A stretch of 10,968 bases of DNA, from IMG/VR virus record IMGVR_UViG_2724679172_000013; one strand, 5' to 3'. Shown here in pieces: positions 6,053-10,968 of this stretch; position 1 is the first letter of the stretch; every line of letters begins with the position of its first letter. Both the position numbers and the translations under genes were made by a program. This DNA is from a virus. Lineage: Duplodnaviria; Heunggongvirae; Uroviricota; Caudoviricetes. The notes under the pieces are model-generated. The model was not told the DNA's origin, ran no database searches, and saw only the letters and a list, made by a program, of their open reading frames with translations.

Positions 6053-6081
6053 GCTTCACCTCCGCAGAGGTCAAACGCTGG

Positions 6082-6170
6082 ATGCAAAAAATCGCAGGTG
6101 CATCTCTGCATCTGTGAAGGGAGAAGAGAGTTTGGATTGTATGTGCGCATAAACGTCCCCGTTTAGCGCA
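6082..6170. repeat. direct repeat copy A (89 bp, about 93% identical to 8016..8104); contains a palindrome and a minus-strand hairpin plus T-run
   Basis: Direct comparison of the two sequences shows 6 mismatches in 89 nt. Weaker similarity continues about 30-50 nt toward higher coordinates. Lies immediately upstream of the ybcN RBS. Confidence 0.85.
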
Positions 6171-6246
6171 GAAGTCACCGGAGTTGTTCAAGCTCCAATG
6201 GCATGATTATGGCTGGTTGATTATTGGAAATCAAATGTGCTGAAAA

Positions 6247-6756
6247 TTAGTCTGCCAAGTCTTCCTCAGTCGCAACTGGGTAATTCCAAATATCAAAAAA
6301 AGCTATAGCCTCCTGCCATTTGCTCCATAAGTTATCAAGTACTTGTGTAGGTTCCGTACTTTTAAAAACAGAATCAGCCGCATCACCGTTATGAACTTCC
6401 TCGTACAGTTCCATTATTAGCAGATTAACAAAGTACTGTTTCAACATTAATGCCTGATTACCTTCTTTCTGCTGGCTATCCTGCTTGATGAGCTCCATCG
6501 CCCGTACTAGGCACCTGATGATATCCGCTGCATCATTAACGCTCCATTCAGATCCGCGCTTATCTTTAGCTGATGAATTGGCTCTCTCAGCGCAAGCCTT
6601 TAAAGACTCATAAAGGTAAACTCTATTTTGTAGCTGCAGCGCTTTTTTTGACGTGCACCAACTTGCAAGCGCCGACCCCGCTGCGGCTAATGTGCCAAAC
6701 GCAGAAATGCCTGCTGCTATTGCACTTAAGTCGGCACTGTCAAAGTTCCACATCAT
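6247..6756 (-). CDS. hypothetical protein with N-terminal hydrophobic (TM-like) segment, 169 aa
   Basis: MMWNFDSADLSAIAAGISAFGTLAAAGSALASWC... then a mostly polar/acidic C-terminal domain. AAGGTG RBS 6 nt upstream. AT-rich upstream region with a perfect TATAAT. No family recognised. Confidence 0.6.
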   Translation of the reverse strand: MMWNFDSADLSAIAAGISAFGTLAAAGSALASWCTSKKALQLQNRVYLYESLKACAERANSSAKDKRGSEWSVNDAADIIRCLVRAMELIKQDSQQKEGNQALMLKQYFVNLLIMELYEEVHNGDAADSVFKSTEPTQVLDNLWSKWQEAIAFFDIWNYPVATEEDLAD

Positions 6757-6931
6757 CGTTACACCTTATATAAACACCCCTCAGTAATATCCAATAAGGT
6801 ATGTGAACAATCAATATAATTTATATCCGTATCGGCACATAGCGATTTTAATGCTACTGATAATGGTATCTTTTAGATTATATCGTCCAGTTCCAGTACC
6901 CGTATTTTATGAAATGGACTCGCACATTACC

Positions 6932-6972
6932 AAAAAAAATGCCAGCACTTCCGTCATCGCAGAATGCTGGCA
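6932..6972 (-). terminator. candidate intrinsic terminator 20 nt after the Bro-N-like gene
   Basis: Minus-strand RNA: UGCCAGCA ... UGCUGGCA (8-bp stem, long loop) followed by UUUUUUUU. Confidence 0.55.
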
Positions 6973-6991
6973 GTATTTCTAACTAGTGACT

Positions 6992-7600
6992 TTATTGCAA
7001 CAGATTCTGACGGAAATATGGTAACACACGACTCCACTTATCATCCTGCCACGGTTGGAATTTTACATGCGCCGTTTCTCTGGCAAGGATTTCTCGCGCC
7101 CTGTTGAGTATCCGAGGATATTCTTGTTCGATTGAAGTGAATCTACCTGCTTCGCGATGCTCTGCGACCTGAAGAAGGGGCGTAACGTTCTGGCAGGCGG
7201 TTAACATCGTATCACTTGCTCGCCATAACCAGGCGAGTGTGCAAAGTTCGTTATCAGTGAATTGTTTTGTGATTGGGGATTGTTGAACTTCTCGATCGAG
7301 AATATCCAGAACCCAGCGGCGGAATTCTTTGGCCACAGGAGTACGAGCAAACATGGCGATCAAATGGGCTCCGCGAAGGCTAAATACTCGAGACTCCTGC
7401 ATTCCACGAGGGGTGGTCACTTTGACCACCCTTGTCATCATATCTGTGAATTCATCTGAGTGCCGAGAGTAAATGCGCTGAACTGCTTTATCGTCCGCAT
7501 ATTCCAGTGCTAAACCAACTTCAGTGGCAGTAAGCCAAATTCTGTTATTGTGGCAAATCGGGGTAAACGTCGTTTTGTGGAATGCTAATTGAGTAGTCAT
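6992..7600 (-). CDS. Bro-N / KilA-N-like N-terminal domain protein (Roi/antirepressor-like), 202 aa
   Basis: N-terminal region (FHKTTFTPICHNNRIWLTATEVGLALEY...VFSLRGAHLIAMFARTPVAKEFRRWVLDIL) matches the Bro-N-type pattern by eye. GAGGTGA RBS 7 nt upstream. Domain call not verified by HMM. Confidence 0.7.
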   Translation of the reverse strand: MTTQLAFHKTTFTPICHNNRIWLTATEVGLALEYADDKAVQRIYSRHSDEFTDMMTRVVKVTTPRGMQESRVFSLRGAHLIAMFARTPVAKEFRRWVLDILDREVQQSPITKQFTDNELCTLAWLWRASDTMLTACQNVTPLLQVAEHREAGRFTSIEQEYPRILNRAREILARETAHVKFQPWQDDKWSRVLPYFRQNLLQ

Positions 7601-8015
7601 AGTATCACCTCATCAGGTTAACCATCACCACCAACGACGCCAATCGACTGGTGGTGAACTGTGTAAGGTTGGCGTAACCGGCTACTCAAACCCGGCGCTT
7701 CCGAAGAAGCCCTCACACAGCCCACCATAATTTGGGCATAGCCGTGCTTAGCGCACAAAAAAACCGCTTAACGCGGTATGCGTTGAGTAGTATCCCGGGA
7801 CGCCAATCCCGTGTGCCGATTTTGCGGCAACGCACAGAATATAGCGCCGGATAAATCATGTCGTCAACCCCAGTAAATGGACACCATGATGATCACATCC
7901 ATAGCTGCTACAACAGTTACAACTACCTCAGGCCAAAACATAACGATTTCCATATCACCTTTAGCCGCCAGACGAATAGAGACTCCCAATTCTGGCTGTC
8001 GAAGTAAAACACCGA

Positions 8016-8104
8016 ATGTAAAAAATCGTAGGTGCATTTCTGCATCTGTGAATGGAGATGAGAGTTTGGATTGTGTGTGCGCATAAACGTCCCCGTTTAG
8101 CGCA
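8016..8104. repeat. direct repeat copy B (89 bp, about 93% identical to 6082..6170)
   Basis: Same element as copy A, same orientation, about 1.85 kb away. Carries the same palindrome gcgcataaacgtccccgtttagcgc and a minus-strand hairpin plus T6. Confidence 0.85.
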
Positions 8105-8412: not shown

Positions 8413-9915
8413 ATGACTCAAACTCCTCTATTACTTGCAATCATATTTTTATTGGTTGTTCTTGTTCTTTATATAGCTGCAATCAAACGCATCAAAAAAA
8501 TACAATTAGAATTAAGTGATAGCAATCAAAAAAATGAAGAATACAAATCTCGCTTTGCAGATTATTTTAATGTAGAAGAAGAATGTAAGAAGCTTATTGA
8601 GAAAACAGAGCAAGAATGCTCCATAATAAAAGAAGAATCCCTAAAAGTAAAAGAAAATGCCAATAATGAACTAACAAACACCATTGAAAAAATGGATGGT
8701 ATCAATAAACAAATCCAAGAGCTAAGAAGAACTTATAAAGAGAAGAAAGAAATATATGATAAACTAGTAAGGCAAATTTCTATTTATTCAGAAGATGTTG
8801 AGCTAGCCGAACTAGGATTTTACGAACCTCATTTTAATTTTGAAGATTCAGAGCAATTTAAAAACAAAATAAAATCCATCAGGGATGAACAGAAATTAAT
8901 GCTGCGGGATAAAACCCACTCTGGCGCAGTATATTGTACAACCCAATGGACTGTTGAAGGCTCTCGAGCAGAGGGTAAAAAAATGACAGACAGAAATATC
9001 AGGCTAACTACTAGAGCATTTAATAATGAATGTGATGCTGCAATTAGCAATTGCACGTGGAAAAACATCACTAAAATGGAAGAACGCATCACAAAGGCAT
9101 TTGAGGCCATAAATAAACTAAACGAGCAAAATCACATATATATAAACACTAAATACCTCAATAAAAAACTTGAGGAATTGTGGCTTACCCATGAATATCG
9201 TGAGCAAAAACAGAAAGAAAAAGAAGAACAGGCAGAAATAAGGGCACAAATGAGAGAGGAGGAGCGTGCACAACGAGAAATAGAAAAGGCCATGCAAGAC
9301 GCAGAGGCAGAAGAGCGCCGTTATAAAAAAGCAATTGAAGCTGCAAGAAAGGAAATGGAAAAAGTTACTGGTGACATGAAGCAGCGCCTCGAAAATCGCA
9401 TTGCCGAACTAGAACAGAGTTTGTCGCAGGCTGAATCAAAGCATCAAAGAGCATTATCCATGGCACAACAAACCAAACAAGGTCATGTTTATATTATTTC
9501 GAACATAGGTTCTTTTGGGGAGAATGTTTATAAAATAGGCATGACACGACGTCTTGATCCGCAAGACCGTGTAAATGAGCTCGGTGATGCATCTGTTCCT
9601 TTTATTTTTGATGTACATGCCATGATTTATTCGGAGGACGCTCCATCATTAGAAAAAAAACTACATGATGTCTTCGATAAAAAGAGAGTCAATCTTGTAA
9701 ATCGTAGAAAAGAGTTTTTCTATGTTACTCTGGATGAGATCAAAGAAGCTGTTAAAAAACACTCTGATTCAGAAATTGAATTTATTGAGACAGCAGTCGC
9801 AAAAGACTTTAATGAGTCATTGGCTATTCGTAATCATGAAAATAAAAAAAGTGACAACAGCAACTCATCAATTATACCTGAGCGAAAAACCCCAGAGTTT
9901 GCAGATGCAATTTAA
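8413..9915 (+). CDS. membrane-anchored coiled-coil protein with C-terminal GIY-YIG-like (T5orf172-type) putative nuclease domain; candidate anti-phage defence / abortive-infection protein
   Basis: 500-aa ORF, opposite strand to flanking phage genes, visibly AT-rich. N-terminal TM helix (LLLAIIFLLVVLVLYIAAI), two long K/E-rich coiled-coil-like segments, and C-terminal GHVYIISNIGSFGENVYKIGMTRRLDPQDRVNELG. AAGGA RBS upstream. Confidence 0.85.
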   Translation: MTQTPLLLAIIFLLVVLVLYIAAIKRIKKIQLELSDSNQKNEEYKSRFADYFNVEEECKKLIEKTEQECSIIKEESLKVKENANNELTNTIEKMDGINKQIQELRRTYKEKKEIYDKLVRQISIYSEDVELAELGFYEPHFNFEDSEQFKNKIKSIRDEQKLMLRDKTHSGAVYCTTQWTVEGSRAEGKKMTDRNIRLTTRAFNNECDAAISNCTWKNITKMEERITKAFEAINKLNEQNHIYINTKYLNKKLEELWLTHEYREQKQKEKEEQAEIRAQMREEERAQREIEKAMQDAEAEERRYKKAIEAARKEMEKVTGDMKQRLENRIAELEQSLSQAESKHQRALSMAQQTKQGHVYIISNIGSFGENVYKIGMTRRLDPQDRVNELGDASVPFIFDVHAMIYSEDAPSLEKKLHDVFDKKRVNLVNRRKEFFYVTLDEIKEAVKKHSDSEIEFIETAVAKDFNESLAIRNHENKKSDNSNSSIIPERKTPEFADAI

Positions 9916-10466: not shown

Positions 10467-10968
10467 ACAGTTGCTCCTTTCAGTCCGAACTTCGCTTTGA
10501 TTTCTGCGATCTTCGCCAGAGCCTGTGCACGATTTAGAGGTCTACCGCCCATGACAGGAAGTTGTTTTACTGGTTCAGGTATCGCCTCACCACGGTTAAT
10601 TCGCGCGGTCATACAAGTCAGTTCATCGGCAGCCTTGCGCCGTAATTCCGCATCAGTAAGCGCATTGGCCCGCATGTTCTGATACAGGTTGGTAACCAGC
10701 CAGTAGTGCGCGTTTGATTTCCACGGATAAGACTCTGCATCCGGATACAGGCCACGCTTCCGGCAATAGTTTGATTTCCACGGATAAGACTCTGCATCCG
10801 GATACAGGCCACGCTTCCGGCAATACTCGTAAACCATATCAACCAGCTCGCTGGTGTTTGGTAGTCCGGCAATAACGGATGCTTCTTCCCGGCACCAGGC
10901 TACAAACTGTCCGGGGGATGGCAGGAATGGTCGATTCTGCCGACGGGCTACGCGCATTCCTGCGTTAA
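10463..10968 (-). CDS. P: replication protein P (lambda P-like), 3' portion; ORF continues beyond the window edge
   Basis: ...RQNRPFLPSPGQFVAWCREEASVIAGLPN...MGGRPLNRAQALAKIAEIKAKFGLKGATV matches the lambda P C-terminal region from memory. Frame stays open upstream of the first in-window ATG to the window end. Contains a 19-aa in-frame tandem duplication. Confidence 0.85.
   Translation of the reverse strand, partial: NAGMRVARRQNRPFLPSPGQFVAWCREEASVIAGLPNTSELVDMVYEYCRKRGLYPDAESYPWKSNYCRKRGLYPDAESYPWKSNAHYWLVTNLYQNMRANALTDAELRRKAADELTCMTARINRGEAIPEPVKQLPVMGGRPLNRAQALAKIAEIKAKFGLKGATV
10712..10825. repeat. perfect tandem duplication, 2 x 57 bp, in frame within P
   Basis: 10712..10768 and 10769..10825 are identical by direct reading (gtttgatttccacggataagactctgcatccggatacaggccacgcttccggcaata). 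Encodes YCRKRGLYPDAESYPWKSN twice. Confidence 0.9.

What the first reader, a model, noticed from the sequence alone, without database searches (positions are those of the whole stretch)
6247..6990. Orphan 169-aa membrane-anchored protein as an independent transcription unit inside the nin-type region
Seen in sequence: ORF 6247..6756 has a good RBS, an AT-rich upstream region with a perfect TATAAT, and sits just downstream of a terminator that closes the Bro-N gene, so it looks autonomously expressed. The protein has one N-terminal hydrophobic helix and an acidic C-terminal domain, and I recognise no family. Small membrane proteins at this prophage position are often superinfection-exclusion or host-modulating morons (inference).
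Basis: partly seen in the sequence, partly recalled or inferred. Interest (0 to 1): 0.45.

Follow-up and report, generated by a model that had tools for sequence, protein, structure and literature searches.

The report
Uncharacterised prophage membrane protein with own promoter
The 169-residue gene is real: it belongs to a small, conserved family of probably membrane-anchored proteins that temperate enterobacterial phages carry as optional cargo with a conserved promoter of their own, but its function is still unknown, so it is a reasonable though ordinary candidate for a phage-exclusion gene.

Summary
The ORF is real. It lies at 6247-6756 on the MINUS strand, co-directional with the phage early-right genes.

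- **Conservation.** Between lineages dN/dS is about 0.1. The protein matches PHROG 1779 ("unknown function") over its full length. It has no hit in Pfam, NCBIfam, PADLOC, PDB sequences or fold libraries.
- **Family.** The family is tiny: 34 clusters at 50% identity among 1.84 billion proteins. Every context examined is an early-region accessory slot of a temperate Enterobacterales phage. The gene occurs in 181 of 5426 complete E. coli genomes.
- **Protein anatomy.** An Ala/Gly/Ser-rich, marginally hydrophobic N-terminal helix is followed by a basic patch, which predicts N-out/C-in topology. Then come a long stalk helix, an acidic helical bundle and a conserved C-terminal DEDLxD tail. No catalytic-looking residues are conserved.
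- **Transcription signals.** The terminator after the Bro-N gene is convincing. A proximal TTGATT-17-GATATT promoter (6814-6786) is conserved at the same distance from the start codon in seven diverged lineages.
- **Downstream.** This copy has no terminator of its own; it abuts the ylcH/ninB leader.
- **Neighbours.** The 500-aa neighbour is PD-lambda-1/SNIPE and is present in only 12 of 40 related loci, so it is not an obligate partner.

Best guess, with low confidence: a non-enzymatic, prophage-expressed protein that acts at the inner membrane as an exclusion or modulator protein.

The parts
6247..6756 (-). Coding sequence of the 169-aa protein. The probable true start is the second ATG at 6753, giving 168 aa. 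It is a PHROG 1779 family member.
   Evidence: ORF. PHROG match 1.7e-102, full length. dN/dS about 0.1 between lineages with dS saturated. The first ATG is ATA in four allele groups.
6655..6729 (-). Codons about 10-34: an Ala/Gly/Ser-rich hydrophobic helix, the predicted signal-anchor. It is followed by the basic patch K37, K38, R45.
   Evidence: KD19 maximum 1.59, Hessa sum +2.7. The helix is conserved in all 25 aligned relatives with KD 1.5-2.5 and 37-68% Ala+Gly+Ser (all but two at least 47%). Eisenberg <H> 0.62, muH 0.17. AF2 predicts a continuous helix 7-63.
6250..6270 (-). Codons 163-169, the C-terminal acidic tail TEEDLAD. The family motif is (T/S)(D/E)xDLxD at the extreme C-terminus.
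   Evidence: T163, E165, D166, L167 and D169 are invariant among 12 close relatives. The motif is present in most of the 25 distant relatives.
6762..6767 (-). Shine-Dalgarno sequence AAGGTG.
   Evidence: Read from the sequence.
6786..6814 (-). Conserved proximal promoter-like element: -35 TTGATT (6814-6809), 17-nt spacer, -10 GATATT (6791-6786). An A/T-rich stretch lies upstream.
   Evidence: One match in the window against 0.04 expected. The same motif lies 55-59 nt before the start codon in 7 diverged lineages. Only 1 other match was found in 279 kb scanned on both strands. TTG and GATATT are invariant in alignment A5.
6877..6882 (-). It has no recognisable -35 element and is not conserved.
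6932..6972 (-). Intrinsic terminator that closes the antirepressor (Bro-N/P22AR_C) gene: a 13-bp stem followed by U8.
   Evidence: -17 to -21 kcal/mol, z = -2.86. The stem is invariant among E. coli alleles.
6053..6235 (-). Backbone ylcH(orf33)/ninB leader that begins 12 nt after the stop codon. It holds a promoter-like TTGATT-17-CATAAT (6234-6206), a covarying hairpin (6198-6178) and ylcH (6150-6049). It is not part of the cassette; it marks its right-hand boundary.
6992..7600 (-). Upstream neighbour: a 202-aa Bro-N + P22AR_C antirepressor-like protein. Its C-terminal half accompanies the 169-aa gene in all E. coli loci examined.
8413..9915 (+). PD-lambda-1 / SNIPE defence gene (DUF4041 + T5orf172) on the opposite strand. 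It shares the variable slot but is not an obligate partner.
   Evidence: PADLOC 1.9e-198. Pfam. PMC13190303. Present in 12 of 40 related IMG/VR loci.

Best explanation
The gene is optional cargo of the moron type in the variable slot between ren and the ylcH/ninB leader of a lambda/DLP12-like prophage.

It encodes a non-enzymatic, bitopic inner-membrane protein. The short acidic N-terminus faces out. An Ala/Gly/Ser-rich anchor helix probably self-associates. The stalk helix, the acidic helical bundle and the invariant DEDLxD tail lie in the cytoplasm.

The gene is transcribed from its own weak sigma-70 promoter (TTGATT-17-GATATT, 6814-6786), downstream of the terminator that closes the antirepressor module. 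It can therefore be made in the lysogen, and also by read-through from pR during lytic growth.

Inferred, not shown: at the cytoplasmic face of the inner membrane it binds a host or incoming-phage component through its C-terminal domain and tail. This would protect the lysogen by superinfection exclusion or interference with DNA entry, rather than by any catalytic activity.
For: **Real, selected gene.**
- dN/dS is 0.10-0.12 where dS is measurable and synonymous sites are saturated elsewhere.
- It matches PHROG 1779 over its full length.
- 34 representative clusters were found, all about 155-180 aa except one of 288 aa.

**Cargo behaviour.**
- It is present in 181 of 5426 complete E. coli genomes. 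The flanking ninB leader is in 2886 and in many phages that lack the gene.
- Its GC content is 44.5%, against about 51% for the backbone.
- It is found in the nin slot, or in the pL-side slot near xis/int, in different phages.
- Two isolated, plaque-forming phages carry it.

**Own promoter.** TTG-N20-GATATT lies 55-59 nt before the start codon in 7 lineages that share only 50-83% protein identity. Only one other match was found in 279 kb. The window holds one match against 0.04 expected.

**Upstream terminator.**

**Downstream terminators.** 7 of 13 lineages have an intrinsic terminator within 75 nt of the stop codon.

**Topology.**
- The hydrophobic helix is conserved in all relatives.
- Charges are D6/D9 before the helix and K37/K38/R45 after it.
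- The relative P0041 adds three transmembrane-like segments in a register that keeps the C-terminal domain cytoplasmic.

**Non-enzymatic.** The only near-invariant residues are A29, S32, Q43, L52, N60, W71, A86, L113 and W147.

**Structure.** AF2 gives pLDDT 84.7: a helix 7-63 plus a helical bundle.

**Slot.** The same slot holds the proven defence gene PD-lambda-1/SNIPE.
Against: - There are no expression data of any kind, and the promoter is a weak match (8 of 12 consensus positions).
- This copy's anchor helix is marginal (KD 1.59, Hessa +2.7), so membrane insertion is unproven.
- The gene is co-oriented with the early lytic operon, so a lytic-cycle role is equally natural.
- Five of the 13 lineages examined lack the promoter motif. 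In one the gene overlaps the upstream gene's stop codon and must be co-transcribed.
- This copy has no terminator of its own.
Confidence: 0.35

Rival explanations
1. It is an early lytic-cycle accessory protein. It would be made mainly from pR by N-mediated read-through. It would act on a host inner-membrane or membrane-proximal process such as proteolysis, division, replication anchoring or the lysis-lysogeny decision. It would not be a lysogen-protecting function.
For: - The gene is always co-directional with the early operon, downstream of the replication genes or of the recombination genes.
- Some lineages lack the promoter motif, and one overlaps the upstream gene.
- In N-antiterminated operons the flanking terminators are read through (established lambda biology).
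Against: - The promoter is conserved at a fixed distance in 7 lineages.
- A terminator lies immediately upstream in E. coli loci.
- The patchy distribution, about 3% of E. coli genomes, fits dispensable cargo.
Confidence: 0.3
2. It is a regulated membrane-permeabilising effector, analogous to HeLo/HELL, holin or SAR domains. The weakly hydrophobic Ala/Gly/Ser-rich helix would insert or oligomerise only on a trigger and kill the cell, giving abortive infection or contributing to lysis.
For: - The hydrophobicity is marginal and the helix is rich in small residues with low hydrophobic moment.
- UniProt's automatic name for the Hafnia relative P0018 is 'Fungal N-terminal domain-containing protein'.
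- Indels of 6-7 residues in the stalk helix are compatible with a coiled-coil oligomer.
Against: - Profile-profile comparison with 39 genuine PF17111 (Helo_like_N) proteins gives probability 3.8%.
- No member hits Pfam Helo_like_N even at E up to 10.
- HET-S and MLKL are not among the fold matches.
- The basic patch directly after the helix fits a stable signal-anchor.
Confidence: 0.12
3. It is a functional partner of a neighbouring gene: either a second component or immunity factor of PD-lambda-1/SNIPE, or the last gene of the antisense-RNA-controlled antirepressor module.
For: - It is adjacent in this window to both genes.
- In all E. coli-type loci with enough upstream sequence, the preceding gene carries the same P22AR_C C-terminal half.
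- SNIPE is also membrane-bound.
Against: - PD-lambda-1 is present in only 12 of 40 related IMG/VR loci and is absent from phage PhiR5_1.
- SNIPE works as a single gene (PMC13190303).
- A strong terminator separates the gene from the antirepressor.
- Relatives in other genera have unrelated upstream genes, such as DUF551, unknown proteins and a theta-like protein.
Confidence: 0.08
4. It is a chance ORF or a decaying gene with no function.
For: - Among closely related E. coli alleles the distinct changes are 14 non-synonymous against 4 synonymous.
- One truncated copy and one frameshifted copy exist, L057 and L048.
Against: - Long-term dN/dS is about 0.1 with saturated dS.
- Length, helix pattern and C-terminal motif are conserved across genera.
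- AF2 is confident, pLDDT 84.7.
Confidence: 0.03

Closest known systems
Morons of lambdoid phages (the HK97/HK022 concept: promoter + gene + terminator inserted in a phage operon). From my own knowledge of Juhala et al. 2000.
   Same: It is an optional gene in a fixed slot and has lower GC than the backbone. It has a conserved promoter of its own directly upstream and a terminator just before that promoter. Many relatives have an intrinsic terminator right after the gene.
   Different: This copy has no terminator of its own. Expression from the prophage has not been shown. The gene sits in the early operon rather than the late operon.
Small membrane-anchored superinfection-exclusion proteins of temperate phages (lactococcal Sie2009 type, HK97 gp15, P22 SieA). 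Cited from my own knowledge; the P22 SieA preprint 10.1101/2023.08.15.553423 was listed.
   Same: It is similar in size, about 170 aa, with an N-terminal anchor helix followed by a single domain. It is encoded by temperate phages as accessory cargo.
   Different: No sequence or fold similarity was detected. The domain is predicted to be cytoplasmic. No phenotype is known.
PD-lambda-1 / SNIPE (PMC9519451, PMC13190303)
   Same: It occupies the same variable slot of the same prophage. It also has an N-terminal membrane anchor followed by a coiled or helical region.
   Different: SNIPE has DUF4041 and a T5orf172 nuclease domain and acts alone. The 169-aa protein has no nuclease or other catalytic signature and is unrelated in sequence. 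The two co-occur in only 30% of related loci.
HeLo-like / Helo_like_N (PF17111) cell-death domains
   Same: Both have an N-terminal Ala/Gly/Ser-rich weakly hydrophobic helix leading into a helical bundle of about 150 aa. One relative carries this name automatically in UniProt.
   Different: The hhalign probability is 3.8%. There is no Pfam hit and no fold match. The C-terminus is an acidic tail, not an amyloid motif.
PHROG 1779
   Same: The match is full-length, 1-169 of 169, at E 1.7e-102. The gene is a member.
   Different: The PHROG carries no functional annotation, so membership names the family but explains nothing.

Membership tests
PHROG 1779 (phage protein family of unknown function) | Significant full-length match to the family profile | tested here: met
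   E 1.7e-102, residues 1-169 on profile positions 1-169 of 169.
Moron (autonomous transcription unit inserted in a phage operon) | Own promoter directly upstream of the gene | tested here: met
   This rests on sequence and comparison only. TTGATT-17-GATATT lies at 6814-6786. The same motif is 55-59 nt before the start codon in 7 diverged lineages. No transcription start site has been measured.
Moron (autonomous transcription unit inserted in a phage operon) | Own factor-independent terminator directly downstream | tested here: inconclusive
   Not present in this window: the phage 82-type ninB leader starts 12 nt after the stop codon. It is present within 75 nt of the stop codon in 7 of 13 lineages.
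Moron (autonomous transcription unit inserted in a phage operon) | Present or absent among otherwise similar phages, with atypical base composition | tested here: met
   181 genomes carry the gene against 2886 that carry the flanking leader. Only 2 of 50,697 phage records carry it, while 48 carry the leader. GC is 44.5% against about 51%.
Moron (autonomous transcription unit inserted in a phage operon) | Expressed from the repressed prophage | not testable with these tools
   This needs RNA-seq, 5'-RACE or a reporter fusion in a lysogen.
Superinfection-exclusion membrane proteins (Sie2009, HK97 gp15, P22 SieA, T4 Imm types) | Homology to a characterised exclusion protein | tested here: not met
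   No Pfam, NCBIfam or PADLOC hit. No PDB sequence hit. No fold hit in PDB or BFVD.
Superinfection-exclusion membrane proteins (Sie2009, HK97 gp15, P22 SieA, T4 Imm types) | Inner-membrane location | tested here: inconclusive
   Prediction only. The hydrophobic helix is conserved but marginal in this copy.
Superinfection-exclusion membrane proteins (Sie2009, HK97 gp15, P22 SieA, T4 Imm types) | Blocks infection or DNA entry of other phages when expressed | not testable with these tools
   This needs plating and injection assays.
PD-lambda-1 / SNIPE system | Obligate co-occurrence with, or homology to, the DUF4041-T5orf172 protein | tested here: not met
   PD-lambda-1 is present in 12 of 40 related loci and absent in PhiR5_1. 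The 169-aa protein has no PADLOC hit.
HeLo-like domain (Pfam PF17111 Helo_like_N) | Detectable profile similarity to the family | tested here: not met
   hhalign of the 25-sequence family alignment against 39 PF17111 proteins gives probability 3.8%. hmmscan finds nothing at E up to 10.
HEPN ribonuclease fold (weak Foldseek hits to HepT toxins) | Conserved Rx4-6H catalytic motif and a significant fold match | tested here: not met
   The best HepT hits have E 0.37-2.6 and TM up to 0.33. No conserved His follows R58 or N60 in the alignment.

The most novel reading that the evidence does not exclude
The family would be a previously unrecognised single-gene, non-enzymatic anti-phage protein, acting by superinfection exclusion or abortive infection, carried by temperate enterobacterial phages. 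It would be expressed in the lysogen from its own conserved promoter. It would act at the cytoplasmic face of the inner membrane through its invariant acidic DEDLxD tail. This would make the ren-ninB slot of lambdoid phages a defence hotspot holding at least two unrelated membrane-based systems, this one and SNIPE.
Probability: 0.25. Interest if true: 0.55.

Novelty: new member of a known kind. Interest (0 to 1): 0.35.

Why it matters
If the protein protects lysogens, it adds a compact membrane-based defence or exclusion gene with no recognisable domain. It would also mark the ren-ninB slot of lambdoid prophages as a place to look for more, next to SNIPE. The conserved promoter and the invariant C-terminal tail give immediate handles for experiments, and two plaque-forming phages that carry the gene, one with SNIPE and one without, have deposited genome records. 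If the protein turns out to be a lytic-cycle accessory factor, it is one more dispensable early gene of limited general interest.

Tried and rejected
1. **Curated family searches.** Pfam, NCBIfam and PADLOC gave nothing for this protein and nothing consistent for 25 relatives.
2. **Exhaustive HMM search.** A search of 1.84 billion representatives and a second profile search at E up to 10 found only the family itself. No distant annotated relatives appeared.
3. **PDB sequence profile search.** Noise only.
5. **HeLo-like lead.** UniProt's automatic name for the Hafnia relative suggested it. Rejected.
6. **HEPN idea from weak Foldseek hits.** Rejected because there is no Rx4-6H motif.
7. **Partnership with PD-lambda-1.** Rejected on co-occurrence.
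Rejected because it has no -35 element and is not conserved.
9. **A conserved upstream mini-ORF beginning (A/T/C)TG GAT ATT.** It has no Shine-Dalgarno sequence, its frame relation to the main ORF varies, and conservation is at nucleotide level. I read it as the -10 region instead.
10. **Inverted repeat flanking the -10 as a covarying RNA hairpin.** The arms are conserved in three lineages, but the apparent compensatory change in L009 is a register shift. Left unresolved.
11. **Rfam.** Nothing in or next to the gene.
12. **Literature and supplement searches for the accession or the PHROG.** None found. Brenes & Laub 2025, probably the source of the PhiR phages, is not held in the library.
13. 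**The search for related loci with the wide alignment.** Failed for lack of conserved stretches. The narrow alignment worked.
Full report
**1. What is in the sequence**

The window is a lambda/DLP12-like prophage of Escherichia coli, with the phage early-right genes on the minus strand. The order, in the direction of phage transcription, is:
- P (partial) and ren;
- PD-lambda-1, on the opposite strand;
- a Bro-N/P22AR_C antirepressor-like gene;
- the 169-aa gene;
- ylcH(orf33), ybcN/ninB, ninE, ybcO, rusA, ylcG and quuD;
- a porin gene, on the opposite strand;
- the lysis genes.

This rests.

The finding's ORF is at 6247-6756 on the minus strand.
- The Shine-Dalgarno sequence AAGGTG (6767-6762) precedes two adjacent ATG codons.
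- Four allele groups have ATA instead of the first ATG, so the second ATG (6753) is the likely start.
- The 235-nt spacer upstream is 36.6% GC.
- The spacer begins with a convincing intrinsic terminator for the antirepressor gene. The hairpin is at 6972-6940 and U8 at 6939-6932, with -17 to -21 kcal/mol and z = -2.9.

**2. It is a real, conserved gene of a very small family**

Annotation and distribution:
- The protein matches PHROG 1779 ('unknown function') end to end at 1.7e-102.
- It has no Pfam, NCBIfam or PADLOC match.
- It is annotated 'hypothetical protein' wherever it occurs.
- It occurs in 181 of 5426 complete E. coli genomes, always on the chromosome.
- It occurs in two sequenced plaque-forming phages, PhiR26_1 and PhiR5_1.

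Family size:
- A word-indexed search of 5.8 billion proteins found 14 clusters.
- An exhaustive profile search of 1.84 billion representatives found 34. All are 150-180 aa except fragments and one protein of 288 aa.
- Named sources are Escherichia, Scandinavium, Cronobacter and Hafnia.

Selection:
- Between lineages dN/dS is about 0.10-0.12 where dS can be estimated. Synonymous sites are saturated in the deeper comparisons.
- Among near-identical E. coli alleles the distinct changes are 14 non-synonymous against 4 synonymous. This is a small sample, compatible with the usual excess of young replacement polymorphisms or with diversifying pressure. I draw no conclusion from it.

**3. Protein anatomy**

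The family alignment shows these features in order:
- a short, often acidic N-terminus with a conserved Trp;
- a roughly 21-residue helix made 37-68% of Ala, Gly and Ser (all but two members at least 47%);
- an invariant Ser32 followed by a basic patch (K37, K38, R45);
- a long helix that carries an indel of 6-7 residues in most distant members;
- a helical domain with an AxRAN motif, W71, W147 and an FF pair;
- in most members, an extreme C-terminal (T/S)(D/E)xDLxD.

No Asp, Glu, His, Lys, Arg or Cys is conserved family-wide. An enzyme is therefore unlikely.

Hydrophobicity:
- In this copy it is marginal: KD19 1.59, summed Hessa +2.7 kcal/mol.
- Relatives reach KD 2.5 and negative Hessa sums.
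- The Eisenberg values (<H> 0.5-0.76, muH 0.11-0.32) fall in the transmembrane, not the surface-amphipathic, region.

Topology:
- The charge distribution predicts N-out/C-in.
- P0041 adds three transmembrane-like segments in a register that again leaves the conserved domain in the cytoplasm.

Structure:
- AlphaFold2 with the 25-sequence alignment gives pLDDT 84.7 and pTM 0.70. It predicts one continuous helix 7-63 and a compact bundle of helices 73-154.

**4. Transcription signals**

- it has no -35 at 16-18 nt and was not called by the consensus scan;
- it is AATAAT in four E. coli allele groups;
- it has no counterpart in distant relatives, whose whole spacer is only 60-110 nt.

What is conserved is a proximal element:
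- It consists of an A/T-rich stretch, TTG(A/C)(T/C)(T/A), exactly 17 nt, and GATATT. It ends 27-31 nt before the start codon.
- It is present in the E. coli type and in six other lineages (L004, L007, L009, L051, L054, L060). Their proteins are 50-83% identical to this one and their synonymous sites are saturated.
- In 279 kb of locus sequence scanned on both strands, the motif TTG-N20-GATATT occurs nine times. Eight of those are at -55 to -59 from the start of this gene (the L051 offset is corrected for my mis-set start).
- In the window it occurs once, against 0.04 expected.

This pattern of invariant hexamers at fixed spacing is the signature of a sigma-70 promoter, but a weak one (8 of 12 consensus positions).

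Five other lineages lack the motif, and in one the gene overlaps the stop codon of the preceding gene.

Downstream:
- Seven of 13 lineages have a clean intrinsic terminator 34-75 nt after the stop codon.
- In this window homology to the phage 82 orf33/orf151 leader starts 12 nt after the stop codon. The phage 82 record annotates a putative promoter and a 'possible regulator-binding site' there.
- So this copy has a terminator in front and a promoter of its own, but no terminator behind it.

**5. Context**

- *A variable slot.* The slot between ren and the ylcH/ninB leader is variable. 2886 E. coli genomes and 48 phage records carry the leader, while 181 genomes and 2 phage records carry the gene. 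In K-12 DLP12, from my own knowledge, the same slot holds emrE-ybcK-ybcL-ybcM.
- *PD-lambda-1/SNIPE.* In this window the slot also holds PD-lambda-1 (PADLOC 1.9e-198). It has recently been characterised as SNIPE, a single-gene membrane-bound nuclease that cleaves phage DNA during injection (PMC13190303; first reported in PMC9519451). It is present in only 12 of 40 related IMG/VR loci and is absent from PhiR5_1. The 169-aa gene is therefore not its partner.
- *The antirepressor module.* In E. coli loci the preceding gene always carries the same P22AR_C C-terminal half, but a strong terminator intervenes. Relatives in other genera follow unrelated genes, and some sit on the pL side near xis/int.
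- *Direct repeat.* A 104-nt direct repeat of the ylcH leader (6067-6170 and 8001-8104, 89% identical) brackets the antirepressor + 169-aa cassette. This suggests modular exchange by recombination in leader copies.

**6. How it most likely works**

Shown:
- It is a conserved, selected gene.
- It behaves as optional cargo.
- It has a conserved promoter-like element and a terminator upstream.
- It has a conserved hydrophobic helix, basic patch and acidic tail.
- It has no catalytic signature.

Inferred:
- It is a bitopic N-out/C-in inner-membrane protein that self-associates through its small-residue helix and stalk.
- It presents an acidic domain and tail to the cytoplasm.
- It is made in the lysogen.
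- It interferes non-enzymatically with a host or incoming-phage component.

I put 0.35 on this package. The weakest link is the exclusion function.

Rivals:
- The main rival (0.30) is a lytic-cycle accessory role from pR read-through.
- A triggered pore- or lesion-forming effector (0.12) is suggested by the marginal helix and by UniProt's automatic 'Fungal N-terminal domain' name for the Hafnia relative. Profile-profile comparison with 39 true PF17111 proteins gave 3.8% probability.

**7. Comparison with what is known**

- The gene is a member of PHROG 1779, which carries no function.
- It works like a moron in most respects. The promoter, composition and polymorphism criteria are met. The downstream terminator is absent here. 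Prophage expression is untested.
- It resembles small Sie-type membrane proteins only in size and architecture. The homology tests were negative.
- It is not part of SNIPE, not HeLo-like by sequence, and not HEPN.

**8. Verdict**

The gene is a new, uncharacterised example of a familiar kind of prophage cargo. Interest is moderate to low (0.35): a specialist would not be surprised, but the conserved promoter, the invariant tail and the neighbouring SNIPE make it a sensible candidate for a defence screen.

Noticed in passing
window 7647-7867 (-): The Bro-N/P22AR_C gene is preceded by three Rfam matches and two consensus sites. The Rfam matches are C4 antisense RNA (7647-7732, 74.8 bits), isrK Hfq-binding RNA (7757-7829, 58.7 bits) and a sub-threshold c4-a1b1 target (7792-7844). 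The consensus sites are a promoter-like TTGACG-18-TATATT (7867-7838) and an sRNA-type terminator (7777-7763). This looks like a P1 immI / Gifsy-1 IsrK-AnrP-type RNA-controlled antirepressor module.
   Followed up: partly
window 6178-6234 (-), and L004, L009, L059, L066: The ylcH/ninB leader has an invariant TTGATT-17-CATAAT. It is followed by a hairpin whose stem differs between lineages while the loop GCCUGAACAAC is conserved. This is the 'possible regulator-binding site' annotated in phage 82. A second hairpin appears to cover the ylcH Shine-Dalgarno sequence and start codon, also with changed stems. No Rfam family matches.
   Followed up: partly
window 6067-6170 and 8001-8104: A 104-nt direct repeat (89% identical) of the ylcH leader brackets the antirepressor + 169-aa cassette. 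The upstream copy encodes only the first ~22 codons of ylcH before it diverges.
   Followed up: partly
window 10712-10825: A perfect 57-nt tandem duplication lies inside the replication gene P. It duplicates 19 residues (YCRKRGLYPDAESYPWKSN). Related loci align at only 85-88% over this ORF.
   Followed up: no
window 8413-9915 (+): The 500-aa neighbour is PD-lambda-1, now described as SNIPE. It has very low GC (35%) and lies on the opposite strand to the phage early genes.
   Followed up: yes
window 6247-6756 compared with L003 and L020-L056: Twelve E. coli alleles differ by 14 distinct non-synonymous changes but only 4 synonymous ones, for example C34Y, L89I, S145N/G and A162V. Deep comparisons give dN/dS about 0.1.
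   Followed up: partly
window 6778-6802 (-); L004, L051, L054: An inverted repeat flanks the conserved -10 hexamer: ATACCCT(GA)...(TC)AGGGTAT in three lineages, weaker in the window. It could be an operator or an RNA hairpin in read-through transcripts. The apparent covariation in L009 is a register shift.
   Followed up: partly
L048 5992-6507; L057 5965-6306: One related locus carries a frameshifted copy with an internal stop codon. Another carries a copy lacking the first ~67 codons. The gene is therefore occasionally lost by decay.
   Followed up: no
L070 1031-2931: A distant family member sits in a small integrative element next to a reverse transcriptase + SLATT_5 pair, a retron-like defence module, and directly after a DNA polymerase III theta-like gene.
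   Followed up: no
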